Part shown: positions 3,001-56,066 of the stretch, piece by piece
Numbering within the stretch: position 1 is the first letter of the stretch
Layout: every line of letters begins with the position of its first letter
Source: a virus
Virus record (IMG/VR): IMGVR_UViG_3300045988_107814
Location: 96,001-160,000 of that record
Direction: 5' to 3' (one strand)
Length of the DNA: 64,000 bases
The notes under the pieces: generated by a model
Seen by the model: the letters and a program-made list of their open reading frames with translations, nothing else
Database searches by the model: none
Told to the model about the DNA's origin: nothing
Made by a program: the position numbers and the translations under genes

Positions 3001-6000
3001 TTAGATAATACGAATCCATTTGTTAGTGCTATATTTAACTTTATGGAATCTATGAACAGAGTTGTTAAAGCTCCATTTGCATTAGCAGCAGCTTCTCTAG
3101 GTAGTGGTCTTGAAGTTATTTCTAGTAACTCTGCTGATAATGGTGGATCTGCTCAAACTGTAAATGATTCTAGTGGTAATACTGGAAGTTCAACAGCTTC
3201 TACTAATAATGCTTCTTCTGGTTCTACATCTTCTAAGAGTAGTGGAGGATTCTTAAGTAAAGTAGCAAGTAAAGGTAAAAGTATATTAAAGAAAATTGGT
3301 GGTGCATTTAAGAGTCTATTTGGTAGAGGTGCTGATGATGAATATACCGATGATACAGGTTATGGTGATGATCCATTCCATATTTATCAAAGAGACTATA
3401 AGAGATCATATAAAACAAATGGTGATACAGAAAATCAAACAGTAGCAGATTCTGGTTGTGGCCCAGCCGCAGCAGCTTCTCTATTAAGAATGTATGGTAA
3501 AAACGGTAATATGAATAATGCTGTTAGTTATGCACTTAATAATAACTACAAGGAAGTAAATGGTGGTACTTATCCACAATACTTCAATGATTATCTAAAT
3601 AAAAATGGTATTAGTACTAACTCTAATGCAAATAATAGAGATGTGGTAAATAGTCTTATTCATAATAAACCAGTTATATTAATGGGTCAAGATGCATCCA
3701 ATAGTGGTAGAACTCCATATGGATCTAAGTATTCTCACTATGTCGTTGCTAGAGGACTTGATTCTAATGGTAATGTAATAGTAGAAGATTCTGAAGATAA
3801 AAAGGGTTCTACTAGATATAGCCTTGCTGATACTTTAAGAAATTCTTCTGTAAGAATTACTACAGGTAGTGGAAAATATGGCAGAGCTAAAGGCACTGTG
3901 TTAGATAACTTTGTTAGTGGTGTTAACTCTGTAATGGCTTCTTCTGTTACAAGCATCTTAGGCAACTTATCTAGCAGTATAGGATATAGCGATAGTAGTA
4001 GCGGTAGCACATCATCTAGTGGTAATACTGGTAGTAGCGGTGGTACTGTTATCGCTGGTACTAATGGAACAATAAGTGATCTAACAAAAGACTCCGATGT
4101 TAAAACAAAATGTGGTTATACAGCTGAACAATTAACAGCCGCTATTAAAGCTATACATCCAGAAGGTTGCTCTGCTGAACAATTCCCAGAAGCAGCTATT
4201 AATGTAGAAAAATCTAAAGGTCTTAATGCATTATTTATAATTGCTGCTGCTATTCAAGAACATGGATGGGATGGTAAAGTTGGTATTAATACAACAGGTG
4301 CTAACTGGGGTAACTGGAATGTATTTAATATTATGGGTAGTCCACATGCTTCTAATGGTCGTTGGAAAGACTATAATGATCTTACTGATGCATTTAGTGG
4401 ATTCGGTGATCTTATTCTAGGTAGCACTTATTATGGTGCTGGATTAAAAACGCCTGAAGCGATTGGTAATAGATATTGTCCTCCAGATTTAGAAGAAAAT
4501 GCAAATTACGGTCAATGGGGCGAATCAGTATGTAATGTTGCTCAAAATATTGTAAAACACATTCCTACTTCTGGATCTGGTCGTGGTAATAATAAGATTG
4601 AACCAGCAATAAATAAAAAATTAATAAATAATATTACAGACTCTATTAGTTATGGAACAGTATCTGCTCTTAATGGCGGATCTGGTAAATGGGGTCGTGA
4701 TGGTGAAGAAGATACAACAACCGCTGATGATACCACAACAACAGATACTTCAACAGAAACAACTGATAGTACTACAACTACTACTAATACATCATCATCT
4801 AGTTCTAGTAGTGCTTCTGAATCTGCTGGATTATTAAGTAAACTAACTGAATATACAACTAATCTTACTAAGGGTGTATTTGGAGATTTTTACGATGCAT
4901 TATATGGTAAAACAGAAACAAGTACAACCACACCAACATCTGGTAATACTATTACTGGTACATTATCTTCTGGTGATTCAATTGCTAATATGAAAACCTT
5001 ATTTAGTTACTTTACATCTCAAGGATTAAGTGATAATTTAGCTGCCGGTATTCTTGGTAATATTAAAGCTGAATCTGGTTTTAATCCTAACGTATTATAC
5101 GGTGGTGCTATTGGTACTGTATTTGATCAGCAATCATTAGCATATGGTCTAATTCAATGGACAGGTACTGATGCAAGAGCTAGCTTATATAACTGGTGTA
5201 CTGCAAATAACTGTGATCCTGATACACTGGATGGCCAAGCTAAATGGATTGTTGCTCAAATTAAAGGTATAAATCTAAACGATGAAACAAATACTGCTAA
5301 TGCTTCTAAATTTAATGGTAGTACTGGTAGAGGTACTATGACATATAATGCTCAATTATTTAATGCTAGAGGTTCATTTGAAACATTTAATACTTATTCT
5401 ATAGAAAAAGCTACAAAATTATGGCTAGAATGTGTAGAAAGACCTGGTGATGTAAATAGTTTCTTACAAGCTAGAGTAGAAAATGCTAAGCAAATACTTG
5501 CAGAATGTAAAGGAACTAGCAGTGGTTCTGGAAGAGGTAGAGGAATAATTAATAAAGCTTTATCTAAACCTAATAAACTAAGAAAGAGAAGATTTGGCAG
5601 AGGTATTTGGGGTCGTGATGGTGAAGAAGAAACAACTACCACTACAACAACCACCACAACGACAGAAGCAGCAGATACTTCTACATCTGAAGATGAAAAT
5701 ACTGGTGTAACATATAGTAGTCCTATAGGTCCAACTAAACCAGATAACTCTACTGATGATACTACAACAACCAATGATTCCGATACAACATCGAGTACAG
5801 GTAGTAATGGTAGTGATACTCTATTAAGTAAACTTACAGATTACGCTTCTAAAGCTGTTAAGGGAGTATATGGTGATTTCTATGACGCATTATATGGATC
5901 TGATACATCTTCCAATGAATCTGATGCTTCATTATCTAATGTAACTGGAAATAGCACTATAACTCAAGGAACTGGTGTGCCATATGAAACTTATAAACAC

Positions 6001-7161
6001 TGGAAACAAGGTGATTATGGAACATATCCAGCACCTTGGGCAAGTAAGAACATTGCAACTGGTGGGGGATATGATACATGTGCTGATAGCGGTTGTGCAC
6101 TTGTATCCTCGGCTATATTATTAGTACACTCCGGATCTATAACCGATAGTTCATTTGACCCTGGTGTATTTATTGATGACGTTGTTGCAAGAGGAGCTAC
6201 AAATTATAAGGGTGAATGGTCAAGTCTAGATACATTAATGGATTATAAAAATTCTGGTATTATGACAGGTGTAGATTATCAAAAATGGTGTTTTGGTCAA
6301 GACTTCACTCAATCTGCATCTTGGGATACTATATATAATACATTATTAAAACAACTACAAGATGGTTATTATGTAATGATACGTGTATCTATTCATGGTA
6401 CTTGTGGTCACTTTGTAGCGTTAGATTATATTGATACGTCTTCTAAAACTATCTATATAATGGACCCTGGTTCATCTCATAAAGAAAATTTAACTGATTA
6501 TTCTGGAAGAATTCTTGGTTACGCAACATTTAAAACCAATGCATCTAATGCTAGTCAATATATTTTAAATGGTAAAAGAAGTGGCTCTGGTAGAGGTAAA
6601 TTTAGCAAGAATACATCTTCGTTTACAGGTAGAGGAAATGATAATAAATATACATTTGCTAATATTAATTCTTCTGTAAATAAGAGAATTGGTAGACAAA
6701 TGATGAAATATACTAAACCTGAGCATTTCTATCCACCTACTGGACAAGGAAGAGGTGTATCTGGTTTAGTAAGTTATGATCAAATTAAAAATAACACAAA
6801 GTCTACTTCTACAACATCAATGACTACTCCTACTAATAACAATAATCAAATAATTGCTTCTAACAATTATATTGGTTCAGCTTCTACTATCGGAACTTCT
6901 TCTGGTGGTAACGGTATAGATTTGAATCAATTAATTAGTTTAATATCTATTATAGCAAACAATGCTGATAAGATGGATGCAATATTACAGTTATTAGGAG
7001 CCATTGCAACTAATACTCAAAATACATCTACAGCTATTTCAAATAATAATAAATCTAAAACAACAAATAATAACGGTCTATCTGCATTGAGAAATGCATT
7101 AGATTCAAATAGTTCTGGAATAGATATTGCAAAAGCAGTTTATCAAATAGCAAAAAGTTAA
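1..7161 (+). CDS. Giant tape-measure-like tail polyprotein with four lytic/peptidase modules (5' end lies outside the window)
   Basis: Frame 1 is open from nt 1 with no stop before the first ATG at 250, so the gene starts upstream; stop TAA at 7159-7161. It has TMP-like hydrophobic segments (GIGVVINIAMAVADFALG, IIFGIIGAKNIVYFLIDILGPIIAP) and K/A-rich helical repeats. Four enzyme-like modules are listed as separate features. Confidence 0.85.
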   Translation, partial: SNDTGFKGFLGNFVNVFKYGVKLWQSGANTIINDVLPGFVEAIVSKLPDILKSVGKGIVDGIASWFDKKDGTGKQSLDKIDGSMVSGGGGNTRANTNTDNSTIEFNNTVGGKFSMEAPKYMGSGPDYSSIQVNDALADTSQTKNKDGTTTITNKDNGKNVTTEKINDDEMVSAGVNASGTEIFYKLSDTNRTQPYSKTGDGQYLRIDNQTDVMNNTLQDNTSFQEMIENDNAGNAGVTNSYTGTTPGLDNAIKGTKIGVKALTSKSGAKGLTLALKAGGKTIKTVGRVASIPVGGKRSIAGKVITKTTNGLGNIVEKGADKLSNDIFNVGQKITNKALSKSKTLQKVNELGLKINDSWMNKFGHGQNKLDALDRSIDRALEKGDTAKAEKLLDKATKVEDKINNGNVFSKFKDKATSKVKNSKAGQAVTKVSEGAKNIKTKAKDVVKKTKVGQAATKVKGVADDAVKSVKGIFEKAKKSIVDWFKKLFKNGTFKKALKEAGQEASDEAIEKMAKESGEKLVKECAEEGAEKIAKAAGKNAIATASDATGIGVVINIAMAVADFALGMDDCRNILQITDKEIPISWRIFAGLANALQDIPAVGIIFGIIGAKNIVYFLIDILGPIIAPDATKKIREKQKQAEETVAEYNRQHNTNLTLEEYNNKFNKTFSSVTKGLAADAGSFLSGRDATVSQSMESRRIVEDAGKKVTKIRKKLEDIASHMWEKEGKKFKGFNLTKETYGTLCAEVIDKIVMLLNGLDEDKLDKVLESAGKMRMNFAENYGSGYVKVLTFGAVDLDPFVDAWDDGYKGLSYLGLDEDKFENTDVVKCIGGIASVFVKSCGGAKLKGKIIDIVITTFCKGMSADGKKIGENEKKMIEESGKDIEEINNQYTAVQQQFKEAGQAQSVAIDSNGNVTTDNIVTNANANNKLSTTNTLQTATSPLSKISNKFSEIINNAVGGFTGGLDNIEELFKSLSSKNKSTNEAIDAMTLLPTDKKYWKIELDNTNPFVSAIFNFMESMNRVVKAPFALAAASLGSGLEVISSNSADNGGSAQTVNDSSGNTGSSTASTNNASSGSTSSKSSGGFLSKVASKGKSILKKIGGAFKSLFGRGADDEYTDDTGYGDDPFHIYQRDYKRSYKTNGDTENQTVADSGCGPAAAASLLRMYGKNGNMNNAVSYALNNNYKEVNGGTYPQYFNDYLNKNGISTNSNANNRDVVNSLIHNKPVILMGQDASNSGRTPYGSKYSHYVVARGLDSNGNVIVEDSEDKKGSTRYSLADTLRNSSVRITTGSGKYGRAKGTVLDNFVSGVNSVMASSVTSILGNLSSSIGYSDSSSGSTSSSGNTGSSGGTVIAGTNGTISDLTKDSDVKTKCGYTAEQLTAAIKAIHPEGCSAEQFPEAAINVEKSKGLNALFIIAAAIQEHGWDGKVGINTTGANWGNWNVFNIMGSPHASNGRWKDYNDLTDAFSGFGDLILGSTYYGAGLKTPEAIGNRYCPPDLEENANYGQWGESVCNVAQNIVKHIPTSGSGRGNNKIEPAINKKLINNITDSISYGTVSALNGGSGKWGRDGEEDTTTADDTTTTDTSTETTDSTTTTTNTSSSSSSSASESAGLLSKLTEYTTNLTKGVFGDFYDALYGKTETSTTTPTSGNTITGTLSSGDSIANMKTLFSYFTSQGLSDNLAAGILGNIKAESGFNPNVLYGGAIGTVFDQQSLAYGLIQWTGTDARASLYNWCTANNCDPDTLDGQAKWIVAQIKGINLNDETNTANASKFNGSTGRGTMTYNAQLFNARGSFETFNTYSIEKATKLWLECVERPGDVNSFLQARVENAKQILAECKGTSSGSGRGRGIINKALSKPNKLRKRRFGRGIWGRDGEEETTTTTTTTTTTEAADTSTSEDENTGVTYSSPIGPTKPDNSTDDTTTTNDSDTTSSTGSNGSDTLLSKLTDYASKAVKGVYGDFYDALYGSDTSSNESDASLSNVTGNSTITQGTGVPYETYKHWKQGDYGTYPAPWASKNIATGGGYDTCADSGCALVSSAILLVHSGSITDSSFDPGVFIDDVVARGATNYKGEWSSLDTLMDYKNSGIMTGVDYQKWCFGQDFTQSASWDTIYNTLLKQLQDGYYVMIRVSIHGTCGHFVALDYIDTSSKTIYIMDPGSSHKENLTDYSGRILGYATFKTNASNASQYILNGKRSGSGRGKFSKNTSSFTGRGNDNKYTFANINSSVNKRIGRQMMKYTKPEHFYPPTGQGRGVSGLVSYDQIKNNTKSTSTTSMTTPTNNNNQIIASNNYIGSASTIGTSSGGNGIDLNQLISLISIIANNADKMDAILQLLGAIATNTQNTSTAISNNNKSKTTNNNGLSALRNALDSNSSGIDIAKAVYQIAKS
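3367..3865 (+). other. Papain-like (C39-like/NlpC-type) cysteine peptidase module 1 inside the giant CDS
   Basis: Catalytic-type Cys context TVADSGCGPAAAASLLRMYG and downstream His context SKYSHYVVARGLD. Boundaries are approximate. Confidence 0.6.
4111..4560 (+). other. GH73 (N-acetylglucosaminidase, FlgJ-type)-like module inside the giant CDS
   Basis: NALFIIAAAIQEHGWDG...NWGNWNVFNIMG...YNDLTDAFSGFGDLI resembles the A-x-LESGWG...NN-FGI pattern of mannosyl-glycoprotein endo-beta-N-acetylglucosaminidases. Boundaries are approximate. Confidence 0.6.
4684..4908 (+). repeat. Inter-domain linker module, copy 1 (WGRDGEE, a T/S-rich tract, then LLSKLTxY...GDFYDALYG)
   Basis: GKWGRDGEED, a T/S-rich tract, then LLSKLTEYTTNLTKGVFGDFYDALYG. 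The partner copy is at 5602-5898. Confidence 0.85.
4981..5513 (+). other. Phage-tail-lysozyme-like module inside the giant CDS
   Basis: LAAGILGNIKAESGFNPNV...AYGLIQWTGTDARASLYNWC matches the GILGN-x-ES...GL-QW signature of the phage tail lysozyme family. Boundaries are approximate. Confidence 0.6.
5602..5898 (+). repeat. Inter-domain linker module, copy 2
   Basis: GIWGRDGEEE, a poly-T/S/D tract, then LLSKLTDYASKAVKGVYGDFYDALYG. The core ggggtcgtgatggtgaagaaga is identical at DNA level to copy 1. Confidence 0.85.
5974..6540 (+). other. Papain-like cysteine peptidase module 2 inside the giant CDS
   Basis: TCADSGCALVSSAILLVHSG (Cys context) and HGTCGHFVALDYID (His context) give the same Cys...His order as module 1. 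Confidence 0.55.
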
Positions 7162-43526: not shown

Positions 43527-46500
43527 TTAAAATTTATGTCTGATAGTATAGTCTTGTTTTATTCCCATTATATCTTTAACTTGTCTATCTAGTTCTACTA
43601 ATCCTTTACCAGCTAATGTATACTGTAATGGAGCACAGCACATACGTTTATCAAACGATACCATAGATGCAATAGCATCGATAGGTTCATTAGGTCTATA
43701 GGATGATGTAGGTTCGTATCCTTTTTGAACAACTTCTTTAGCTACACCTTTTTGAGCACCTAGAAAAATTAGTTTATCACCAACAGAGAAGTCATCTTTA
43801 TAAGATACATATATTTCAATTAATACGCCATCTTCTATATTTTTTAGTTTTCCTTCTTGAGGAAGTTTCTGACAAGTATATTGTTTTGCTAGATTCTCAT
43901 CATATTTAGCAATTTGTTTTGCCTTAGCATTACGTTTTCTTTCATATTCAGATACTATCTTCTTTAATGACGGAGACATTTCATCTAGTTCACAAGTTCT
44001 ATAGATATTAATATCTTCTATAACACCTGTATTATTAGACTTAATTGGAATACGTCCAAGAGATGTTACTGTGTCTTCATCATCAACTAAGTTCTTTAAC
44101 AATACGTTTACATCATTATCTTCGAATGTATTCTGAATAATTAATAATGGATCTCCTTCTTGCACTTGATCTCCAACTTTAATCATATTGAATATATTTG
44201 TATTTTTAGATAATGTAACTGGTACTTCCATTATTACATTAGATGATAATGCGTCAGAAATATAACTAGATACAATACAGGAGTCTTCGAATCCTTTATC
44301 AGAAGTAATAATTGCTACTTTTGCTAATGTACCTTGATTATAAGTAGCACTATTATCATAACCACAATTAACACTATATGACATAGGATCATAAGCAATT
44401 AACTGACCTTTCTTTACTTTAGTACCGAGACCTTTATCTACTTCTAGTTTAACTGATGTATAAAAACCACCATCAGAGTTTTTATATACTTTATTATTAA
44501 GATCAACAAAATCAATACTACCATCATTATATTGAATAACAACATGATCATCATCACGTTCAACAACAGTACCATTGTCTTTAGCGTTAAAAGAGAATAC
44601 ATCTGGTGTGAACATTGTAAGAGCGTCATCCATACCATTTGTGATAAGTAATGGATCACCACCTGCAACTCTCATATCATGCTTACTTCTCTGTACATAT
44701 GACATTGCTAAACGGAATGGGTCATCATGAGTAGTACACATAGGAGTAAGATTTTCTGCTGTGGTCATTGTATTTACATCATTCATCTTAGATTTTTCAT
44801 TTGACTTATCAGAGATATATCCACGTTTACCGTTTATATTTGCATTAGTAGTCATAATACGGTCAACACCAACTGTAGCAGCGAAACCTGTAGACATTCC
44901 TAGAATATTTGTCATAGATTCGTCATAGGTACGCTTTTCTAGTGAATAAGATCTATCACTGTTAAGACCAGATAGTCCTTTAAATGAAGCCATACTATTA
45001 CTATTAGCATAGTTTAATTCATTAATTGTAGATAAGTCTGAACATGTATTATCCATCATTATTGCATCAATAATAGCAGATTGTTTTACTGTCATTGTAG
45101 CTTTACCGGTTTTCTTTAACTTTGTTCTATAATCAGCATAAGCCTTAGATAAAACTTTGTAAGCATAACCGGCTACAATTTCATTAGTTCTAAATCTATT
45201 ACCAGAAATATCTACATGCTTATTATATTTAGTATCTGATAATAAATTAGATGCATAGATTAATGCTTCACAAAAATCTTGTGGAAGATCATACATATTA
45301 CAAACACGTTGAGAGATAGGATCAAACATAAGATCGTAGAAGTTATCAAGACCATCTGCTTTAATCCTGCCACCAAAGTTATCTAACATTTCTGTCCACA
45401 TTGTCTTAGAGTTTACATCCTTAATAGAATAATCTATTGTATCGCATTCCTTTAATCCATTCATGAACAAAGAAGAATTATAATCAATTCTATATAATAA
45501 GAATGCATCCTTAAATTTAATAAGATCATGTGTAGTATAATCTATCTTGCTAGGACGTTTATCAGTAATTTCATAAGAAATAGCAGCTTTGTTAAGTGTT
45601 TTAATAAGGCCTTCACAATATGCACAAATAACAATTACTGGCATCTTGGTATTAAGAATAGATGCTTGAGAATATGCATATTTAACAGATGGCTTTGCTT
45701 CGTTATAATAAGTAGCGAATTCTTCATCTTTACACAATTCAGCAGCGATAATATTAGAGCATAAAATAGCTCCATCGCTATAGATAATCTTCTTTTCACT
45801 GGCATCATATCCAATAGGCAATCCTTTAGACAAGTCAATAATGTCTTGATATTTTTCTCTGATATCATCTTGATCAAAATAGAATGTAACGTTTTTATAT
45901 TTAATATAAGAATATGCTTTACCAATATCCATATAATCCATTGGGATTTCATATTTAAGAGCAGTTATAGCATTATTACCAGACATATTTGTAATAGATT
46001 TACCAGTATATTTAGACAATGCTTTTATAATTTTACCAGACACTACATTTGATTTACCAACAGCACTACCAAATGTACGGAAGAAAATCTTGTTATAATT
46101 TGTAGTAATTTGTGCTGTATCAAATTCTGTTTTTATAATAGGAAGATTTATTAACTGAGCATTAATTGTCTTATCATTACCTCTTAGTCTCATAAATCTA
46201 TTATTCTTGAACAAAGGAATATCGAATTTCAATTGGAATCTAGTACCGCCGATATCTTCACATTGTACAGTCCAAGTTTCTTTCAAATCTTCAGATGTAG
46301 TTGTATTTTCAACATCAACATTTCTGATACCAACTGGAACAGTTCTTGTAGAAAAGAAATCTAAGATAGCCATTATATCTTCGTCTACATTATATTCTTT
46401 ATTAAAATTAATGTATTGAAGATTATCCCATTGATCATTATTAATACTATTAATATTAGCAGAAGATACTGGTAATGGATCTTCACCTGTATCTTGGGAA

Positions 46501-48734
46501 TCTTCTAGCATTTGACTAATAGATTCACCTTTAACTTTTTTCTTTTTAAGATCATCACTAAGAGAATTTATTCTTGCTTTACGAGTTGCAGAAGCTTTAA
46601 TCTCTGTAGATTCTTCATCAGAAATATCTTGAATCAGATTAGCAATATAATCGTTATCAAGTTTTTCTAATGCTTCGTCTGTAGAAGTAGAATTTTGTGC
46701 AGCATCTTTAATACTCTCAACAAGTTCTTCTTTCTTTTTCTCTGTTACTTCCTTAGCTACTTCTTTCTCAGATTTTTCTACATTATTTTTATCTTTTACA
46801 GTTACTTTCTTTTGAGATACCTTTTCTATCTTCTCATCACTATTAGAAGAAGATGTAATTTCTTTTGATACTTTACCTAATGCTCCATATAGATTAACTT
46901 TTTTAGAATTCTCGATCTTATCTACAATATCAGTAACAATTGCATTAGGAGTATCTTTTACCATATCTTCATCATTAGGTACAATCTTATTAAAGATATT
47001 ATTTATATTAGATATAAATCTTTGTAGTTCGGATTTCTTAAATTCAGAAAAGTTAATCTTAAAATAAGAGTTTTTACCAAAGAAGAAAACGTTGTTATTT
47101 CCAAATATCTTCTTAAGTTCATCAAAATCATTACGCTTAACTAAACGTGTTATGAGACTTACAGGATTTAAAGATTTGGTATAATCTATTACATTTACAT
47201 CATCACTGTAGTAGTCTAAAACAGGAATAAAAATTGATTTAGTCTTATATTCTCTATCTATAGTAGAATTGTTCAGAAAACGTCTCAATGTTTCAGAATA
47301 TAACTTAATACCCTGTTCGCCCATCTTTTTATTATTCTCTATAAAGAGTTTATTGTAATAAGATACATCTACAAAAAGATTCATCTTATTATATGCTTCT
47401 ATATTTACTTTGGTAAATTGAATTGCAGGGCATTGAGCTTTGACAACTTTATATACGTCAAATAATTCTTTTTGATTTCTGATTCGTTCATTATACATAT
47501 ATTGACGTAGTCTATTATCAATGGCATCTTCAGTAAATATTTCATCACCAAAGAATACAGCATTATCGCCATATCTAAATCCTTCTGAATTAATTTCAGA
47601 TTCAGGAATTTGTGGAGATTTTTCTTTTTCTATATTAACCTTTATTAGATCAATATATACAACTGGATATTTATCTTTATTCTTACTGGTTTTACCAATA
47701 AACTTTAATGCCGTTGCTCTATCAATAAAATTACCATCTTGAATAATAGAAGTCTTGATATTTTGGATCAATAGTTTATCTCTATTTAAAGAATATACTG
47801 GAACAATTCTATTACCCTTAGATGCAATTTGTTTATTGATATCTCTATTATACATAACATCTCTAAATGTATAGATTAAATACATAGAGATTTCTTCTTT
47901 TTCATCATCGTCATCAAAATATGAATCTTCTAGATAAATTCCGAATTCATTACCATATATAGGATTCTTATGAGAAACACCAAAACCTGCAAGATTATCA
48001 TTTGTATCATAACATAGGGCTAGGAAATTAGCATTGGTTAACATTTCACATACATTTTTATAATCTCTTATATCTTTAATAAGTTTTTGACATTCTTTTA
48101 TATACTTATTAATATCCTTACCAGTATAGTATTCGAATCTATAATCTGTTAGAATTTTTAATGGAATACCACCAGAAGTTTTAACAGTAACTTCTTTCAA
48201 GCTTCTATAATATTTAGAGAATCTATTCTCTTCACCAACTTCAATATCAGTAATATTAAAGTGCTTTAGCTTTTTAATGATATTCTTAGCTAATGTTTTC
48301 TCATATTCTTTTGGACAATGATTAAACATTCTTATCGCTGCTCTAACATGTTCTTCATCATTGATAGGGTATGATCTAGTTTGAGGAATGCCAAATTCAC
48401 TATCAGATAACTCTTTTCTATCTTTAGTAGATAATTTAGATTCATTAATAAAAGAACTAATAAAATCGTCCTTATACTCAACAAATTCTTTTATCTGATT
48501 AGTATCTGCTTTGATAATAGCATCAATAGATTTATCAATATAATATGATCTAAACCATTTACGATTGTTTATAATTATATCACTATTAATCATTCTAATA
48601 GAAGATGATATATCAGATGTTAGTAGATAGATTAAACTTCCATGTTTATCATCATCTGGATTTAAAGGTATAAAAAGTCTGTTGTTCTTATTATACAGCT
48701 TTAAATTTTTCATATCTTTAATGTGTATAGACAT
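43527..48734 (-). CDS. 1735-aa protein with a C-terminal multisubunit-RNAP beta (RpoB)-like region fused to a long unrelated N-terminal part
   Basis: SFKGLSGLNSDRSYSLEKRTYDESMTNILGMSTGFAATVG (about 44945-44992) parallels GPGGL.R......R..H.S.YGR.CP.ETPEG. HDDPFRLAMSYVQRSKHD (about 44701-44740) parallels HDDANRALMG.NMQRQ. GDKLIFLGAQKGVAKEV (about 43745-43790) parallels GDK...RHGNKGV. ASMVSFDKRMCCAPLQYTLAGKG parallels PSRMN.GQ..E..LG. The protein ends before the GEME motif. Confidence 0.7.
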   Translation of the reverse strand: MSIHIKDMKNLKLYNKNNRLFIPLNPDDDKHGSLIYLLTSDISSSIRMINSDIIINNRKWFRSYYIDKSIDAIIKADTNQIKEFVEYKDDFISSFINESKLSTKDRKELSDSEFGIPQTRSYPINDEEHVRAAIRMFNHCPKEYEKTLAKNIIKKLKHFNITDIEVGEENRFSKYYRSLKEVTVKTSGGIPLKILTDYRFEYYTGKDINKYIKECQKLIKDIRDYKNVCEMLTNANFLALCYDTNDNLAGFGVSHKNPIYGNEFGIYLEDSYFDDDDEKEEISMYLIYTFRDVMYNRDINKQIASKGNRIVPVYSLNRDKLLIQNIKTSIIQDGNFIDRATALKFIGKTSKNKDKYPVVYIDLIKVNIEKEKSPQIPESEINSEGFRYGDNAVFFGDEIFTEDAIDNRLRQYMYNERIRNQKELFDVYKVVKAQCPAIQFTKVNIEAYNKMNLFVDVSYYNKLFIENNKKMGEQGIKLYSETLRRFLNNSTIDREYKTKSIFIPVLDYYSDDVNVIDYTKSLNPVSLITRLVKRNDFDELKKIFGNNNVFFFGKNSYFKINFSEFKKSELQRFISNINNIFNKIVPNDEDMVKDTPNAIVTDIVDKIENSKKVNLYGALGKVSKEITSSSNSDEKIEKVSQKKVTVKDKNNVEKSEKEVAKEVTEKKKEELVESIKDAAQNSTSTDEALEKLDNDYIANLIQDISDEESTEIKASATRKARINSLSDDLKKKKVKGESISQMLEDSQDTGEDPLPVSSANINSINNDQWDNLQYINFNKEYNVDEDIMAILDFFSTRTVPVGIRNVDVENTTTSEDLKETWTVQCEDIGGTRFQLKFDIPLFKNNRFMRLRGNDKTINAQLINLPIIKTEFDTAQITTNYNKIFFRTFGSAVGKSNVVSGKIIKALSKYTGKSITNMSGNNAITALKYEIPMDYMDIGKAYSYIKYKNVTFYFDQDDIREKYQDIIDLSKGLPIGYDASEKKIIYSDGAILCSNIIAAELCKDEEFATYYNEAKPSVKYAYSQASILNTKMPVIVICAYCEGLIKTLNKAAISYEITDKRPSKIDYTTHDLIKFKDAFLLYRIDYNSSLFMNGLKECDTIDYSIKDVNSKTMWTEMLDNFGGRIKADGLDNFYDLMFDPISQRVCNMYDLPQDFCEALIYASNLLSDTKYNKHVDISGNRFRTNEIVAGYAYKVLSKAYADYRTKLKKTGKATMTVKQSAIIDAIMMDNTCSDLSTINELNYANSNSMASFKGLSGLNSDRSYSLEKRTYDESMTNILGMSTGFAATVGVDRIMTTNANINGKRGYISDKSNEKSKMNDVNTMTTAENLTPMCTTHDDPFRLAMSYVQRSKHDMRVAGGDPLLITNGMDDALTMFTPDVFSFNAKDNGTVVERDDDHVVIQYNDGSIDFVDLNNKVYKNSDGGFYTSVKLEVDKGLGTKVKKGQLIAYDPMSYSVNCGYDNSATYNQGTLAKVAIITSDKGFEDSCIVSSYISDALSSNVIMEVPVTLSKNTNIFNMIKVGDQVQEGDPLLIIQNTFEDNDVNVLLKNLVDDEDTVTSLGRIPIKSNNTGVIEDINIYRTCELDEMSPSLKKIVSEYERKRNAKAKQIAKYDENLAKQYTCQKLPQEGKLKNIEDGVLIEIYVSYKDDFSVGDKLIFLGAQKGVAKEVVQKGYEPTSSYRPNEPIDAIASMVSFDKRMCCAPLQYTLAGKGLVELDRQVKDIMGIKQDYTIRHKF

Positions 48735-52559: not shown

Positions 52560-54875
52560 TTACATCATATTAGATACATAATAATCAGTATCATAAGCTG
52601 TAACAAATCTCACACTATCATTATCTTCAATAATATGTTGGTCATTTGAAAAAATAATATCAGCCGTTTTTGGATCAGATACTAGATTACCTCTTGCACA
52701 AGCATTGAGAACAATAAGATCATACAAGTTAGGTCTGCCAATATCAATAATGGCTTTTACAATTTCAATGACTTTATTAGAACCGTTTTCAATTGTATTA
52801 GTAATATTAGCAAGAATATCATATGTCATATCACACCAGATAAACTCTCTATTAATACAATCGAAGATAACGGGCACACAAGTAGTAGATTCAGCATTAA
52901 CATCGATTCTATCTTGGACAGTAGACGGTTCAAAGATTTCTCCGCTATTCATATCGTTTCTGTACATCCATCCAAAACAACAATTCTTCATAGAACTGAA
53001 ATGTTCTCTAGAGTAGTTATGAACAGAGAGGATTACATATCTACCTCCAGTTTTGATAACCTTGTTAATATCTATATCAATAAACTCTGCTACACCAGCA
53101 CCATCTTCTGGACCACCATTTGTGATATCTCCAGAATGGCAACCGATATCAGACTTTAGATTAGTAAATGAAATATGGGATATAGATTTAAAATCTTCGC
53201 TAAATACACCAGCAGACAAATCTACATCTACATTACCGGTCCACCAAATAAAACTTCTTAGAATATTGGTACTATCGGAAATACTAATATGACTTCCTCT
53301 CGTAATATTCTTGGAAGATGGACTTGCACTTCTAAGATTAAATGGAACAATAAAGTTCTTAAAATCTTTGTCTACATAAACATTTCCTAACTTGTCTAGA
53401 TTAGATTGTTTACTAATAATAGCCTTAGCACAAACACCTGCTACTTCAGTACAAATATCAGACTCCAGATCTTTTAGGTTATAAGGGATAACTTTAATCT
53501 TAGCAGTAGATCCTTTGAGGAAAAATACTCTACTAGTCTTTTCATCACCAGAAGCTCTATGAGAGAAATATTGGAAAAGTTGAATTAGAATCGGAACAGG
53601 AATTTTATCAGCAACCTTTTTAAATTCTCTAATAACAAGCTTGCTATCATTAGGATTTTTACAAGCACTTAGAATTCTGTTTAGATTTCTTGCAAACTCA
53701 CCTGGACGAGTAGAACACATACCACAAATAGAAACAATAAGATTTTGATTATTATGACTAAAATCATCAATAAGTTTAGTCAAATGACCGTTAAACGATC
53801 TTATAGGACACTTACTGTAGTTTCTTAAGATGAAAAACATCTTAACTGCATTTGGGTATTGTTTACTGTATGTGTAAGGATGAACTCTCTCACCAACTCT
53901 TAACCATCTTTCTCTATATCTATACATATCTTCAATCATTCTCGGATTTAAACCACTGATGTCAACCGAAGGATTGTGAGAAGTAAAATAATCAAGTTCT
54001 TCATTCTGAATAGCAATATTATCAAGAACACTCATTAGAATTTTTCTATGTTTTCTTGGAATATTTCTATAATGACAAGGTTTAGATAATGAAGAATCAC
54101 TAGTATTAACATATGCTAGATATCTTAAGATATCTGTAGCTGTTTTATACTTACTTTTAATAAAGTCAATTCCTTTTGTATAGAAAAGTAACAAAGATAA
54201 ACTTGCTAAATTTTCCTTGTTAGGAATTTCAATATCGTTTGGAATGATAAAATCACCAAAGTATTTGAGTACTTTATATGCATCAATATTTCTCTCATAA
54301 TAGGTATTCGAACTAAATGTATTGATATCATTTTTATCAATAACGGATAGCGAAACCTTACTAGACATTAAGTTAGTAGTGATCTCTTTTACCATTTGAA
54401 TTGCTTCATATGGTGTGATGATTGAAATAGTCTTAAGCTTTTCAAGTTTATCTATTTCAATTAACGGAGTTCTTTGTTTTGTTTCATAATACGGAACTAA
54501 TCTTCCATCAGACATATAGTGAATAATTGCATTGATATATAATTCAGCATTACTCATATCCATTACTTGTTGAGGGAAATTAGGATACATACAATTGTAT
54601 TCAACATCGTCCCCTAAGTATTGCTTAATTGAAATAAGCAATACTTTATTATACCAATCTACAATATCTTCTTTATTGAATTTTAGAGCCAAAATATTAA
54701 ATGATTTTTCATCAAGTTTGAATCCATAATCATATAGATTCTTACAGATAGTAGCAACCATTTCTTTGGTCTCTGGATTAAATTCACAAGGATAAGGTAA
54801 TTTGCTATCATTATAAGGGCTGATAACACAGCCCTTTCTTCTGAAGAGTACGATTGATAAACTTGTTTTGTTCAT
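52560..54875 (-). CDS. 771-aa protein with a C-terminal TerD-like domain
   Basis: VDVDLSAGVFSEDF...FTNLKSDIGCHSGDITNGGPEDGAGVAEFIDIDINKV...GGRYVILSVHNYS (about 52980-53250) follows the TerD pattern vDLD......hSGDn.tG.g.GDdE.I.vdL. The N-terminal ~520 aa are unrecognised. AAGGAG RBS. Confidence 0.6.
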   Translation of the reverse strand: MNKTSLSIVLFRRKGCVISPYNDSKLPYPCEFNPETKEMVATICKNLYDYGFKLDEKSFNILALKFNKEDIVDWYNKVLLISIKQYLGDDVEYNCMYPNFPQQVMDMSNAELYINAIIHYMSDGRLVPYYETKQRTPLIEIDKLEKLKTISIITPYEAIQMVKEITTNLMSSKVSLSVIDKNDINTFSSNTYYERNIDAYKVLKYFGDFIIPNDIEIPNKENLASLSLLLFYTKGIDFIKSKYKTATDILRYLAYVNTSDSSLSKPCHYRNIPRKHRKILMSVLDNIAIQNEELDYFTSHNPSVDISGLNPRMIEDMYRYRERWLRVGERVHPYTYSKQYPNAVKMFFILRNYSKCPIRSFNGHLTKLIDDFSHNNQNLIVSICGMCSTRPGEFARNLNRILSACKNPNDSKLVIREFKKVADKIPVPILIQLFQYFSHRASGDEKTSRVFFLKGSTAKIKVIPYNLKDLESDICTEVAGVCAKAIISKQSNLDKLGNVYVDKDFKNFIVPFNLRSASPSSKNITRGSHISISDSTNILRSFIWWTGNVDVDLSAGVFSEDFKSISHISFTNLKSDIGCHSGDITNGGPEDGAGVAEFIDIDINKVIKTGGRYVILSVHNYSREHFSSMKNCCFGWMYRNDMNSGEIFEPSTVQDRIDVNAESTTCVPVIFDCINREFIWCDMTYDILANITNTIENGSNKVIEIVKAIIDIGRPNLYDLIVLNACARGNLVSDPKTADIIFSNDQHIIEDNDSVRFVTAYDTDYYVSNMM

Positions 54876-54898
54876 AACTATTAACTCCTTTATATAAA

Positions 54899-55531
54899 AT
54901 TTATTGGGTGAATAAATTTAAATTTCGGAAACGGAAATCATGATATCTGTATTCAAACCAAAATTATTTTAAAGAAGGAAGATATCACATAGCCGGAATT
55001 TAAATTAATAGAGTTCTTTGTATATGTATAATCAATAAATTTTGTCCAATCTTGATATCTATTTTCATAGGCTATAAGCCTAAACACTTAATAAGAAGGA
55101 AGATATCAAATATAACATTTAAAATCATATACAAAGAACAAGAGGCTCAGCTCAATCGTATATTCTAAATAAGGCTTTTATTATAAAATGAAGAAGGAAG
55201 AATATACATATAGCTGAATAAGCACTTATATTACAACAAAAAGTTCGCAAGATAACTTTTTGGTGTAAACAAATAGAAGACTGGTGTAGAGATAATAAAT
55301 CGGGGAAGTGAGTTATGTCGTAGTTCTTCTCTACACCAGCCAATTTAGTGAGGAAATTGGAAATTTGATAGAAGAAAAATAAGGGAGTACTCTTAAGGGA
55401 GTTACCCTCTTGAGTACATATAGATGGGATATAAGGACTGAAACTTATATCCCTGAAGTAAAAAATTAGGAGGTCGCTAGTTTCCATGCATGTACAATAA
55501 AAACTAACTATGTCAACGCAAATCGTTGCGT
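54899..55531. ncRNA. Gene-free, hairpin-dense region: candidate large structured ncRNA (alternative: iteron-type origin). Strand unresolved.
   Basis: At least 11 perfect or near-perfect helices. Three nested-helix modules each carry AAGAAGGAAGAT(A)ATC (54972-54987, 55093-55108, 55191-55207). There is no RBS-preceded ORF. Details are in the findings. Confidence 0.5.
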
Positions 55532-55541
55532 GGAAAGTGTC

Positions 55542-55871
55542 TTATAGTCTATCACAGATATCTTTAATATGCTTATCACAATTATAGATTCTGTTTTCAA
55601 TTTTAGCAATCTGGCCTTCTGTCTCTGATACTAATTCCTTAAGCATCTCAAGCTTTTCTTTATAGAAACGCTTAGAAGCCTTGTAGTATCTACGTTCCAT
55701 CTTAGCTTCGGCAATACGAGTAGCTTCCAGTTCATTACTAATATCACCTTCCTTCAAGGTTGCTACACCTTCGAATACTTCATCTCTACCACAAACTTTC
55801 ATGTTGATAGATGCGATGATTTTTCCATCTTCGACCTTAATAGTCTTATTGTCTTCCAAAAACTTAATCAT
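55542..55871 (-). CDS. Hypothetical coiled-coil protein, 109 aa
   Basis: AAAGGAA lies 9 nt before the ATG at 55871; the track start at 55880 is a TTG inside the RBS spacing. Confidence 0.7.
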   Translation of the reverse strand: MIKFLEDNKTIKVEDGKIIASINMKVCGRDEVFEGVATLKEGDISNELEATRIAEAKMERRYYKASKRFYKEKLEMLKELVSETEGQIAKIENRIYNCDKHIKDICDRL

Positions 55872-55900
55872 AATAAACAATTCCTTTCTTTAATTTGGAA

Positions 55901-56038: not shown

Positions 56039-56066
56039 AAGCCACTGAGCTAATGCCCAGTGACTT
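56039..56066 (-). terminator. Rho-independent terminator (minus strand) after the holin gene
   Basis: AAGTCACTG...CAGTGGCTT (one mismatch) followed by cttcttttaaa on the minus strand. Confidence 0.5.

What the first reader, a model, noticed from the sequence alone, without database searches (positions are those of the whole stretch)
54899..55531. 650-nt ORF-free, hairpin-dense region with three nested-helix modules, sitting between tRNA-Pro and tRNA-Lys: a candidate large ornate ncRNA or an iteron-type origin
**Seen in sequence.** About 665 nt separate the TerD-domain gene start (54875) from the stop of the 109-aa gene (55542), and they contain no RBS-preceded ORF.
- Module 1: outer helix 54914-54928/54993-55006 (14 bp). 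Its single G-T pair is a legal wobble only on the plus strand. It encloses inner helix 54941-54948/54980-54987.
- Module 2: outer helix 55013-55026/55126-55139 (14 bp, perfect). It encloses inner helix 55052-55060/55101-55109 and a tip hairpin at 55068-55082.
- Module 3: outer helix 55147-55152/55212-55217, enclosing inner helix 55158-55166/55199-55207.
- Each inner helix is led by the same purine string: AAGAAGGAAGATATCA at 54972-54987 and 55093-55108, and AAGAAGGAAGAATATAC at 55191-55207.
- In module 3 both strands of the inner helix have changed together (TGATATCT/AGATATCA becomes GTATATTCT/AGAATATAC). This is a compensatory change.
- Further helices: 55237-55245/55254-55262 (9 bp), 55281-55292/55328-55339 (12 bp), 55340-55346/55354-55360, 55387-55392/55412-55417 with 55396-55399/55405-55408, 55426-55435/55444-55453 (10 bp), and 55516-55521/55526-55531.

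**Established knowledge.** The very large bacterial ncRNAs GOLLD and ROOL are repeatedly phage- or prophage-borne and lie next to tRNA genes.

**Inference.** This is either such an RNA (possibly a new class) or a DNA-level element. Three 16-bp direct repeats spaced 121 and 98 bp apart would also suit iterons of a replication origin.
Basis: partly seen in the sequence, partly recalled or inferred. Interest (0 to 1): 0.8.

Follow-up and report, generated by a model that had tools for sequence, protein, structure and literature searches.

The report
Tandem Y-RNA-like hairpin RNAs in phage

Summary

- It is not one large ornate RNA, and it is not an iteron origin.
- Modules 1-3 are three separate 70-130-nt hairpin RNAs read on the minus strand, which is the coding strand of both neighbouring genes.
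- Each has the layout P1 – GGCUAU – P2 (7 bp) – CUUCCUUCUA – variable loop – YAG – P2' – RAUUUCC – P1'.

The evidence for a conserved RNA family is strong.
- A covariance model built only from distant relatives finds exactly these three sites in the window (E 5e-12 to 3e-7).
- The same model finds 256 sites in 69 of 72 related phage loci. All are on the gene strand, flanking homologues of the 771-aa gene at 52560-54875.
- Covariation is very strong, and G·U pairs outnumber A·C pairs 92 to 9.
- An RNA-only pattern search of bacterial genomes returns 25 loci, and 20 carry the same protein gene directly downstream.
- Longer family members carry a tRNA-like module that matches Rfam YrlA (Y RNA-like).
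- Neighbouring genes at related loci include the RNA-repair enzymes Thg1 and RlaP.

The partner protein is a helical N-terminal domain plus a TerD-like domain. It is not detectably Ro60 by sequence. No Rfam family covers the RNA.

The parts
54927..55000 (-). Unit C, the copy nearest the gene and the best match to the family. Its segments are GGCUAU 54994-54989, P2 5' strand 54988-54982, CUUCCUUCUU 54981-54972, CAG 54949-54947, P2 3' strand 54946-54940 and GAUUUCC 54939-54933.
   Evidence: Covariance model R1 scores 49.5 bits, E 4.8e-12, full length. The minus-strand minimum-free-energy fold reproduces P1 and P2.
55041..55119 (-). P2 is UUGAUAU/AUAUCAA and the 10-mer is CUUCCUUCUU. The apical loop holds a small hairpin, 55068-55082. 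A further perfect 14-bp closing helix lies at 55013-55026/55126-55139.
   Evidence: R1 scores 33.7 bits, E 2.6e-7. Fold z-score is -4.6. The inverted repeat is I5.
55147..55217 (-). P1 is UCAGCU/AGCUGA, P2 is GUAUAUU(CU)/(AG)AAUAUAC, and the 10-mer is CUUCCUUCUU.
   Evidence: R1 scores 42.5 bits, E 5.9e-10. Fold z-score is -4.2.
52560..54875 (-). 771-aa gene immediately downstream of the units, and their proposed protein partner. It has a helical N-terminal domain of about 445 residues and a TerD-like beta domain at the C terminus. It belongs to phrog_33734, of unknown function.
   Evidence: RNA units flank its homologues in 69 of 72 phage loci and in 20 of 25 bacterial loci that were found from the RNA pattern alone.
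55367..55512 (-). A second conserved multi-hairpin element, upstream of the units. Its order is CAUAG, hairpin Ha, CGACCUCCUAAU (55475-55467 holds GACCUCCUA), hairpin Hb (55426-55453), AUAUGUAC, then hairpin Hc (55387-55417). Its role is unknown.
   Evidence: It is shared with relatives whose neighbouring protein is only ~40% identical: L104, L111, L105-108, L113 and L121. Hb is completely replaced by a compensatory stem in L104 and L111. Fold z-score is -4.4. RNAalifold on a MAFFT alignment gave no usable consensus.
55231..55360 (-). Three further hairpins: 55340-55360, 55281-55339 (12 bp, perfect) and 55231-55268. There is no evidence that they belong to the family.
   Evidence: The 12-bp helix carries three uncompensated mismatches in the 93% relative L103. 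R1 gives no hit here.
55516..55531 (-). Small hairpin directly after the stop codon of the upstream 112-aa gene, with a T-rich stretch a few bases downstream. It may be that gene's terminator (inference).
   Evidence: Read from the sequence. The terminator scan did not call it.

Best explanation
The 54927-55217 part of the region encodes, on the minus strand, three tandem short-form members of a conserved hairpin RNA family.

**Layout of each RNA.**
- A closing stem P1 is formed by its own 5' and 3' ends. It ends in an invariant GG/CC.
- Next comes a conserved asymmetric internal loop, (C)UAU opposite RAUUU.
- Next comes a 7-bp helix, P2.
- The apical region begins with the near-invariant pyrimidine string CUUCCUUCUA and ends with YAG.
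- Between those two strings almost anything can sit: about 20-50 nt in the window's copies, and a complete tRNA-like module in some relatives.

**Proposed mechanism (inferred).** These RNAs work like bacterial Y RNAs (YrlA/YrlB).
- The conserved stem, internal loop and pyrimidine string would be the docking site for the protein encoded immediately downstream, which has a helical N-terminal domain and a TerD-like C-terminal domain.
- The variable apical module would recruit or block a second factor.
- The resulting ribonucleoprotein would act in RNA, probably tRNA, surveillance or repair during infection. A plausible use is countering host nucleases that cut tRNAs.

**Shown:** the RNA-level structure, the strand, the family, the tight linkage to the protein gene, the YrlA-type tRNA-like module in long-form relatives, and RNA-repair genes nearby at related loci.

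**Inferred:** transcription and processing into separate RNAs, binding to the protein, and the repair or counter-defence role.
For: **Structure and strand.**
- The 3' half of each unit was located from its conserved anchor alone, without using pairing. P2 then pairs 7/7 in 72 and 6/7 in 52 of 155 units. Mismatched-partner controls give 1.5 and 5.0.
- On the 66-sequence alignment A4, 412 cells show changes on both sides of a pair, against 145±10 in shuffles. The covariation score is 0.90, against 0.16-0.24 for slid registers.
- In P2, G·U pairs number 92 and A·C pairs 9.

**The window's copies.** Model R1 was built without any sequence from the window's clade. It hits only 54927-55000, 55041-55119 and 55147-55217, all on the minus strand. 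The next best hit in 64 kb has E 0.13.

**Linkage to the protein gene.**
- 256 R1 hits fall in 69 of 72 loci chosen through the protein. All are on the gene strand.
- In the reverse direction, an RNA-only pattern in 185,579 bacterial and archaeal genomes gave 25 loci. Twenty have a protein homologue (35-48% identity) starting 20-150 nt downstream on the same strand.
- The same arrangement holds in cultured phages Xoo-sp13, LpeD and Weasels2.

**Likeness to Y RNAs.**
- Long-form units have a T-arm, an acceptor stem closed by a loop, and a D-arm, in that order.
- They match Rfam YrlA RF02553 at 30-42 bits, E 2e-8 to 1e-2, in part over the full model.
- This is the architecture described for YrlA in PMC4201824 and bioRxiv 10.1101/312249.

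**RNA-repair context at related loci.**
- A Thg1-like gene and an AAA_33 kinase sit beside the units in Paenibacillus loci L335 and L333.
- A Thg1-like gene sits beside them in phage L129 and lies within the locus in L168.
- RlaP lies nearby in RcXuper and Xoo-sp13.

**The protein.** It has an all-helical N-terminal domain. Outside its own family, its best structural matches in BFVD that cover that domain are a phage TROVE-domain protein (E 1.3e-3, 419 columns) and a Ro-like protein (E 1.3e-2).
Against: - No expression data exist. Transcription, RNA ends and processing are not shown.
- The window's three copies lack the tRNA-like module, and Rfam YrlA gives no hit in the window even at E<=10.
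- The conserved 5' motif is GGCUAU...CUUCCUUCUA, not the GNCGAAN0-1G Ro-binding motif of YrlA (PMC4201824).
- The partner protein is not Ro60 by sequence. There is no Pfam TROVE hit. hhalign probability is 0.1-0.6% against Ro60 profiles. Foldseek against the PDB gives only generic HEAT/ARM matches at E>=0.018.
- Most units lie in what would be the 5' leader of the protein gene, so a purely cis-regulatory role is not excluded.
- Three bacterial loci carry a unit with no homologue of the protein detected in the locus.
- YrlA matches stay below Rfam's gathering score of 69 bits.
Confidence: 0.62

Rival explanations
1. The hairpins are cis-acting leader or operator elements of the 771-aa gene's mRNA. 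For example, they could be repeated binding sites through which the protein represses its own translation or stabilises its transcript. In this reading they are not free-standing RNAs.
For: In the window, in most relatives and in every bacterial locus that has the gene, the units lie directly upstream of the gene on its own strand. The last unit ends about 50 nt before the start codon.
Against: - Many loci also, or only, carry units downstream of the gene. Examples are L156 and L157 with units downstream only, L109, and Weasels2.
- Copy number ranges from 1 to at least 7.
- Some units hold a complete YrlA-type tRNA-like module. A translational operator has no need for one.
- Each unit has its own closing stem, as expected for a separately excised RNA.
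- A few units occur without the gene.
- The two roles do not exclude each other. Salmonella yrlA and yrlB are co-transcribed with rsr (10.1101/312249).
Confidence: 0.2
2. The units are small RNAs that mimic the anti-Shine-Dalgarno sequence. The exposed CUUCCUUCUA, and the CGACCUCCUA of the upstream element, would pair with purine-rich ribosome-binding sites such as GAAGGAAG or AGGAGG, and so redirect translation during infection.
For: The most conserved single-stranded string is pyrimidine-rich, and by my own comparison it resembles the 3' end of 16S rRNA. It is kept across phages of 23-59% GC and many hosts, as expected if its target is universal. The upstream element carries ACCUCCU.
Against: - This reading does not explain the equally conserved internal loop GGCUAU/RAUUUCC.
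- It does not explain the obligatory linkage to one protein gene, the tRNA-like inserts, or the RNA-repair neighbourhood.
- No target was identified.
Confidence: 0.07
3. The hairpins are processing or termination signals of the phage's tRNA and small-gene region, such as RNase III sites, with no function of their own.
For: The stems are long and irregular, and the units sit in tRNA-rich regions.
Against: - Loop sequences are invariant across very distant genomes.
- The order and spacing of motifs is fixed.
- The units are linked specifically to one protein family rather than to tRNA genes in general. R1 finds nothing near the other tRNAs of the window.
Confidence: 0.05
4. One reading: the whole 650 nt is one large ornate non-coding RNA of the GOLLD, ROOL, OLE, HEARO or raiA kind.
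For: The intergenic gap is long (620-810 nt) and is kept at this position in all relatives examined. It is dense in hairpins, and a second conserved element lies upstream of the units.
Against: - No Rfam family matches at the gathering threshold, or at E<=10.
- The number of units varies from 1 to 7 between relatives and their order is not fixed. This fits a tandem array, not a single fold.
- Some of the hairpins are not conserved even at 93% identity.
Confidence: 0.03
5. One reading: the three direct repeats are iterons of a replication origin, acting at the DNA level.
For: Three exact 11-16-bp direct repeats lie in a non-coding region.
Against: - The repeat is half of a hairpin whose partner arm covaries.
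- Pairing is strand-specific, with G·U 92 against A·C 9.
- Orientation is always that of the neighbouring gene.
- Cumulative GC skew falls steadily from 28 to 64 kb with no extremum at 55 kb, and the region is not unusually AT-rich.
- The same element occurs in bacterial chromosomes upstream of the same gene.
Confidence: 0.01

Closest known systems
Bacterial Y RNA-like RNAs YrlA and YrlB (Rfam RF02553; Chen et al. 2014, PMC4201824; Wang et al. 2018, bioRxiv 10.1101/312249)
   Same: - They are modular RNAs of 80-130 nt whose 5' and 3' ends pair into a long stem carrying a conserved protein-binding site.
- They are encoded in one to several tandem copies within a few hundred nt of one particular protein gene, on the same strand.
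- They occur in phages as well as bacteria.
- Long forms carry a tRNA-like module in the order T-arm, loop-closed acceptor stem, D-arm. Short forms, like YrlB, lack it.
- They have RNA-repair genes nearby.
   Different: - The conserved stem motif is GGCUAU / RAUUUCC plus CUUCCUUCUA...YAG, not GNCGAAN0-1G.
- The adjacent protein is not a recognisable TROVE/Ro60 protein and carries a TerD-like domain where Ro60 has a vWA domain.
- Matches to RF02553 rest on the tRNA-like module alone and stay below the gathering score.
- The window's three copies have no tRNA-like module.
- R1 finds nothing next to canonical Ro-like genes of actinophages.
Metazoan and Deinococcus Y RNAs with Ro60/Rsr
   Same: Both have a stem formed by the RNA's own ends and a pyrimidine-rich unpaired region next to it. 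Both are proposed to tether a ring- or solenoid-shaped protein to an effector (as described in PMC4201824).
   Different: There is no sequence similarity. The protein partner here is not detectably homologous to Ro60.
Two-piece (permuted) tmRNA and permuted tRNA genes
   Same: In the long-form relatives the T-arm and 3' acceptor strand come before the 5' acceptor strand and D-arm. In phage RcXuper a permuted tmRNA lies right next to the YrlA-like element.
   Different: - There is no tag reading frame.
- No standard seven-base anticodon loop could be pieced together from the two tRNA halves in the four long-form units examined by eye.
- The acceptor stem is closed by a 4-8-nt loop.
- ARAGORN finds no tmRNA.
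- The window's own copies have no tRNA-like part.
GOLLD, ROOL and other large phage-associated non-coding RNAs
   Same: They are phage-borne, lie next to tRNA genes, and have unknown biochemical function.
   Different: Those are single RNAs of 400-800 nt with complex folds. Here there is an array of small hairpins, and no Rfam match.

Membership tests
YrlA / Y RNA-like (Rfam RF02553) | Reaches the family's curated Rfam score (69 bits). | tested here: not met
   No hit in the window even at E<=10. Long-form relatives score 30-42 bits, E 2e-8 to 1e-2, below the gathering score.
YrlA / Y RNA-like | A long stem formed by pairing the RNA's 5' and 3' ends. | tested here: met
   P1 and P2 covary strongly. 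Minimum-free-energy folds of the window's units show the stem.
YrlA / Y RNA-like | A tRNA-like effector module: T-arm, loop-closed acceptor stem, D-arm. | tested here: not met
   The module is absent from the three window copies, whose loops are 22-37 nt. It is present in at least 14 long-form units in relatives.
YrlA / Y RNA-like | The conserved 5' motif GNCGAAN0-1G, the presumed Ro-binding site (PMC4201824). | tested here: not met
   The family consensus is GGCUAU-N7-CUUCCUUCUA. In the YrlA alignment of L177 the stem part does not match the model consensus.
YrlA / Y RNA-like | Encoded within about 4 kb of a Ro60/TROVE gene, on the same strand. | tested here: not met
   Same-strand adjacency to a conserved gene is met. 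That gene is not TROVE: there is no PF05731 hit and hhalign probability is below 1%. The rest of the phage genome, outside the 64-kb window, could not be examined.
Ro60 / TROVE (for the neighbouring 771-aa protein) | A TROVE HEAT-repeat ring recognisable by sequence profile. | tested here: not met
   Pfam gives no TROVE hit in 18 family members at E<=1. A PDB profile search returns only TerD, 3ibz, E 0.13. hhalign against Ro60 profiles gives probability 0.1% and 0.6%.
Ro60 / TROVE (for the neighbouring 771-aa protein) | A Ro60-like fold. | tested here: inconclusive
   The AlphaFold2 model has mean pLDDT 78, with an all-helical N-terminal domain and a beta C-terminal domain. BFVD matches a phage TROVE protein at E 1.3e-3 and a Ro-like protein at E 1.3e-2, with TM-scores of 0.2-0.3. 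The PDB search gives only generic HEAT/ARM proteins, and Ro60 is not among the top 50.
GOLLD / ROOL / HEARO / OLE / raiA | A match to the Rfam covariance model. | tested here: not met
   Searches give no such match on either strand.
Iteron-type replication origin | Direct repeats that act as double-stranded DNA sites with no dependence on strand, usually beside an initiator gene, an AT-rich unwinding region and a skew shift. | tested here: not met
   The repeats are arms of strand-specific covarying hairpins. There is no skew extremum and no drop in GC. No initiator gene lies alongside.
tRNA / tmRNA | Detected by ARAGORN or by the Rfam tRNA or tmRNA models. | tested here: not met
   Only the flanking tRNA-Pro and tRNA-Lys are detected. 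Nothing is found in 54876-55541.

The most novel reading that the evidence does not exclude
The hairpins and the adjacent protein (helical domain plus TerD-like domain) form a previously unrecognised ribonucleoprotein system. It would be a second system resembling Ro60 and its Y RNAs, built on a protein not recognisably related to Ro60. It is spread through jumbo phages of Gram-positive and Gram-negative hosts and through Paenibacillus, Bacillus and other bacteria. It would use short hairpin RNAs and tRNA-mimicking RNAs to direct tRNA or RNA repair, or to decoy tRNA-targeting defence nucleases, during infection. TerD-domain proteins of phages, so far read as tellurite-resistance or superinfection-exclusion factors (PMC7824862), would then be RNA-binding proteins.
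Probability: 0.45. Interest if true: 0.85.

Novelty: new variant of a known kind. Interest (0 to 1): 0.78.

Why it matters
**A new RNA family.** If it holds, this adds a large, well-supported structured RNA family that Rfam 15 lacks. About 300 copies were seen here alone, in phages of 23-59% GC and in several bacterial phyla. The records of Xoo-sp13, LpeD, Weasels2 and RcXuper do not annotate it.

**A testable role for an orphan protein.** It gives a function to test for a widespread protein family, phrog_33734, annotated as "hypothetical" or "TerD-like".

**A broader view of Y RNAs.** It suggests that the Y-RNA principle is not tied to Ro60. That principle is a stem that docks a protein plus an exchangeable, often tRNA-like, effector module.

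**Relevance to phage biology.** It points to an unexplored RNA-based layer of tRNA repair or counter-defence. This is of current interest because many bacterial defence systems act by cutting tRNAs.

**Ready experimental systems.** Cultured phages with the module exist (Xanthomonas Xoo-sp13, Lactobacillus LpeD, Rhodococcus Weasels2, Rhodobacter RcXuper), so the hypothesis can be tested directly.

Tried and rejected
- **DNA searches of the phage collection.** Searches with the region and with 10 kb around it against 50,697 phage records found nothing.
- **First viral scan for two spaced copies of the 11-mer.** It returned about 100 loci that looked like chance purine-rich matches. They were not examined further.
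- **The search for related loci with the single protein.** It found nothing. A profile of distant homologues was needed.
- **Permuted tRNA gene.** I first read the long-form units as genes whose halves would be religated. In L177, L109, L127 and L129 no standard anticodon loop can be assembled from the two halves. The YrlA model explains the topology better, so I dropped this reading.
- **Homology of the protein to Ro60.** Two profile-profile comparisons and a PDB fold search did not establish it. Only weak matches to phage TROVE and Ro-like models remain.
- **RNAalifold on the upstream element.** The MAFFT alignment put the hairpins out of register and my window coordinates started too late. 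The compensatory stems were then seen by eye and were not tested statistically.
- **Viral scan for CATAG...CGACCTCCTA.** It gave a list I judged to be mostly chance matches, likely ribosome-binding sites on the other strand. It was not followed up.
- **Extra pairs CUA/UAG and AU/UA in the unit.** The columns are invariant or unpaired, so nothing can be concluded.
- **A fourth, degenerate unit.** I looked for one at 55281-55339 and at the start of the intergenic region. R1 gives no support.
- **Burroughs & Aravind 2016 on RNA-repair systems.** I could not read it. A prior description there cannot be excluded.
Full report
**1. What is in the sequence**

The window comes from a ~30% GC phage.
- It encodes a multisubunit-RNA-polymerase beta-like protein, an SbcC-like protein, a holin, an NAD-dependent DNA ligase and many virion proteins.
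- Near-identical contigs are about 219 kb long and come from metagenome assemblies.
- The flagged stretch, 54876-55541, lies between two minus-strand genes: a 112-aa gene (55542-55880) and a 771-aa gene (52560-54875).
- tRNA-Lys and tRNA-Pro lie further out, also on the minus strand.

- The three direct repeats are at 54972, 55093 and 55191.
- The perfect 14-bp, 12-bp and 10-bp inverted repeats are also recovered.
- The 11-mer AAGAAGGAAGA occurs nowhere else in the 64 kb.

The only sizeable ORF is not a gene.
- It spans 55152-55487 on the minus strand (111 aa) and has no family match.
- Indels remove it in the 97% relative L102 and truncate it to 40 aa in the 93% relative L103.

**2. The repeats are part of a hairpin family read on the minus strand**

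Homologues of the 771-aa protein are numerous: 960 at E<=1e-5. They fall into a 93-99% group and a large group below about 43% identity.
- In every contig fetched through them, a gene-free gap of 620-810 nt precedes the gene.
It occurs in 1-5 tandem copies upstream of the gene, and often again just downstream.
- This holds in loci whose GC content ranges from 23 to 59%.

Lining up 180 distinct copies shows a two-part 5' motif, GGCTAT-N7-CTTCCTTCTA. Each copy also has a 3' counterpart, YAG-N7'-RATTTCC.
- N7' is the complement of N7. This is helix P2.
- The bases outside GG and CC also pair. This is helix P1.

The pairing was tested without circularity.
- The 3' half was placed from its conserved anchor alone. 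P2 then pairs 7/7 in 72 and 6/7 in 52 of 155 units, against 1.5 and 5.0 with shuffled partners.
- On a gap-free 66-sequence alignment, 13 of 15 pairs show changes on both sides.
- 412 cells show double changes, against 145±10 in shuffles. All slid registers collapse to background.
- In P2 there are 92 G·U pairs and 9 A·C pairs. The helix therefore forms in a single strand with the polarity of the genes, which is the window's minus strand.

**3. The window's copies**

Covariance model R1 was built from those 66 units. None of them comes from the window's own clade.
- With filters off, over the whole window and both strands, R1 finds three significant hits:
  - 54927-55000: 49.5 bits, E 5e-12.
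  - 55147-55217: 42.5 bits, E 6e-10.
  - 55041-55119: 33.7 bits, E 3e-7.
- All three are on the minus strand. The next best hit has E 0.13.
The "purine string" is the complement of P2's 5' arm plus CUUCCUUCU. The "outer helices" are P1 or extensions of it.
- Minus-strand folds reproduce the family structure.

The remaining 320 nt, 55220-55541, does not belong to this family. It holds two kinds of feature.
- A second conserved multi-hairpin element lies at about 55367-55512. It is shared with the ~40%-identity relatives, and one stem is replaced by a fully compensatory one.
- Several hairpins follow that are not conserved even in the 93% relative.

**4. Association with the protein, tested in both directions**

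- R1 gives 256 hits in 69 of 72 loci selected through the protein, and every hit is on the gene strand.
- A pattern made only of the RNA's conserved letters was scanned against one genome for each of 185,579 bacterial and archaeal species. It returned 25 loci, mostly Paenibacillus and Bacillus/Gottfriedia, with single hits in Acidobacteria, Sericytochromatia, Anaerobutyricum and others.
- In 20 of these 25, a homologue of the protein (35-48% identity) starts 20-150 nt downstream on the same strand.
- In two more the locus ends before a gene could appear. In the other three no homologue was found.
- The bacterial loci carry 1-3 tandem units.
- Cultured phages show the same arrangement, unannotated:
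  - Xanthomonas phage Xoo-sp13: two units, E 6e-12 and 1e-7.
  - Lactobacillus phage LpeD: two units with the variant CUUACUUCUA.
  - Rhodococcus phage Weasels2: two weak units downstream of the gene.
  - Rhodobacter phage RcXuper: a YrlA-like element.

**5. What the RNA resembles**

About a tenth of the units are 135-148 nt long. Their loop holds a T-arm, a 3' acceptor strand, a 4-8-nt linker, the complementary 5' acceptor strand and a D-arm, in that order.
- I first took these for permuted tRNA genes, but no anticodon loop can be reconstructed from them.
- The topology is that of bacterial Y RNA-like RNAs (YrlA). In those, a stem formed by the RNA's ends carries the Ro60-binding site, and the other end is a tRNA mimic with a closed acceptor stem (PMC4201824; bioRxiv 10.1101/312249).
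- Rfam's YrlA model matches these units at 30-42 bits (E 2e-8 to 1e-2), in three cases over the full model. All matches are below the curated 69 bits. Only the tRNA-like part aligns to the model consensus.
- As for YrlA and YrlB, the RNAs come in long and short forms, in tandem, next to one protein gene and on its strand.
- The differences are the stem motifs, and the fact that the window's three copies are all short forms.
- R1 finds nothing beside canonical Ro-like genes of four actinophages. This is a separate family.

**6. The protein**

- AlphaFold2 (57-sequence alignment, mean pLDDT 78) gives an all-helical N-terminal domain of about 445 residues and a beta-rich C-terminal domain.
- The C-terminal domain is TerD-like. 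Pfam TerD hits 4 of 18 members, and the PDB profile search returns 3ibz at E 0.13.
- Foldseek against the PDB finds only generic HEAT/ARM solenoids at E>=0.018.
- In BFVD, after its own family and several TerD-sized proteins of unnamed function, the best matches covering the helical domain are a phage TROVE-domain protein (E 1.3e-3, 419 columns) and a Ro-like protein (E 1.3e-2).
- Profile-profile comparison with vertebrate Ro60, and with a mixed phage and vertebrate Ro60 alignment, shows no similarity (probability 0.1% and 0.6%).
- I therefore treat the protein as a possible analogue of Ro60 in architecture: a helical repeat domain plus a second, possibly metal-binding, domain. It is not a member of the TROVE family.

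**7. Functional context**

Genes next to the module at related loci repeatedly belong to RNA repair or tRNA end-healing.
- A Thg1-like 3'-5' polymerase and an AAA_33 kinase lie directly upstream of the units in two Paenibacillus loci.
- A Thg1-like gene lies beside the units in phage L129, and another lies within phage locus L168.
- RlaP nucleotidyltransferases lie nearby in RcXuper and Xoo-sp13.
- tRNA genes occur at many of the loci, and a permuted tmRNA in RcXuper.

None of these enzymes was found inside this 64-kb window.

**8. Interpretation**

Shown:
- A strand-specific, covarying RNA structure.
- A large family that Rfam 15 lacks.
- Three copies of it in the window.
- Obligate linkage to one protein family.
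- YrlA-type tRNA mimicry in long-form members.

Inferred:
- The RNAs are excised as separate molecules.
- They dock the adjacent protein through the conserved internal loop and pyrimidine string.
- The complex acts in RNA or tRNA surveillance or repair during infection.

The main rival is a cis-regulatory leader of the protein's mRNA. It is weakened by the downstream copies, the tRNA-like inserts and the rare orphan copies, but it is not excluded, and the two roles could coexist. The origin reading and the single-large-RNA reading are rejected.

**9. Novelty**

- No Rfam family matches. The library search found no paper linking TerD-domain phage proteins to Y-like RNAs.
- The jumbo-phage survey PMC7824862 mentions TROVE proteins with a tRNA-like partner only in a small subset of phages. 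It discusses phage TerD genes, including standalone TerD in actinobacterial phages, under the Ter stress and exclusion system.
- I could not read Burroughs & Aravind 2016, so an earlier mention cannot be ruled out.
- I rate it a new variant of a known kind: a Y RNA-like system with a new stem module and a partner that is not Ro60.

Noticed in passing
window 55367-55512 (minus strand): A second conserved structured element lies upstream of the three units. Its order is CAUAG, a hairpin, CGACCUCCUAAU (an anti-Shine-Dalgarno-like string), a hairpin at 55426-55453, AUAUGUAC, and a hairpin at 55387-55417 with apical GGUAACUCC. It is shared with relatives L104, L111, L105-108, L113 and L121, and the middle stem is swapped for a fully compensatory one in L104 and L111. 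There is no Rfam match.
   Followed up: partly
window 55281-55339: This perfect 12-bp hairpin starts with GGCUGGU, which recalls the family's 5' motif. It lacks the 10-mer, gets no covariance-model hit, and carries three uncompensated mismatches in the 93% relative L103.
   Followed up: partly
window 55152-55487 (minus strand): A 111-aa ATG ORF spans the structured region. One gene caller annotated a 126-aa version of it in L101. Indels destroy it in L102 and truncate it in L103, so it is spurious.
   Followed up: yes
L180 2580-2714: One family member carries an ordinary, non-permuted tRNA-like sequence in its loop, with the D-arm before the T-arm. ARAGORN calls it a tRNA of undetermined type. 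Other long forms carry the YrlA-type order.
   Followed up: no
L193 (Rhodobacter phage RcXuper) 1023-1556: A permuted tmRNA gene (Rfam tmRNA_permuted, 108 bits) is followed directly by a YrlA-like element. Next come the protein homologue and, a short way downstream, an RlaP RNA-repair nucleotidyltransferase. Neither RNA is annotated in the GenBank record.
   Followed up: partly
L329, L338 (Paenibacillus sp. DMB20); L341 (marine bacterium AO1-C): These loci carry canonical RNA units (59-61 bits) with no homologue of the protein detected. In DMB20 the unit sits upstream of SUFU-like, DUF6138 and SUKH-family genes. In AO1-C it sits near an AbiEii-like nucleotidyltransferase.
   Followed up: partly
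L335 1671-2872, L333, L129 5485-6315, L168 7508-8005: Thg1-like tRNA-His guanylyltransferase genes lie at these loci, beside the RNA units in L335 and L129. The two Paenibacillus loci also carry an AAA_33 kinase. This points to tRNA 5'-end repair.
   Followed up: partly
L109 9804-11320: An IS605-type element (Y1 transposase plus a TnpB/Cas12f-like gene) and a Mom-like gene lie just downstream of the module in one distant jumbo-phage contig.
   Followed up: no
window 56039-56066 (minus strand): This is the only intrinsic-terminator-like hairpin in the neighbourhood (12 bp, 6 G-C pairs, T-run). It lies between the holin gene and tRNA-Lys.
   Followed up: no
window 250-7161 and 43527-48734: A 2303-aa ORF matches only phrog_512, of unknown function. 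A 1735-aa RNA-polymerase beta-like ORF has an N-terminal DUF6582 hit. Both fit a giant phage that carries its own multisubunit RNA polymerase.
   Followed up: no
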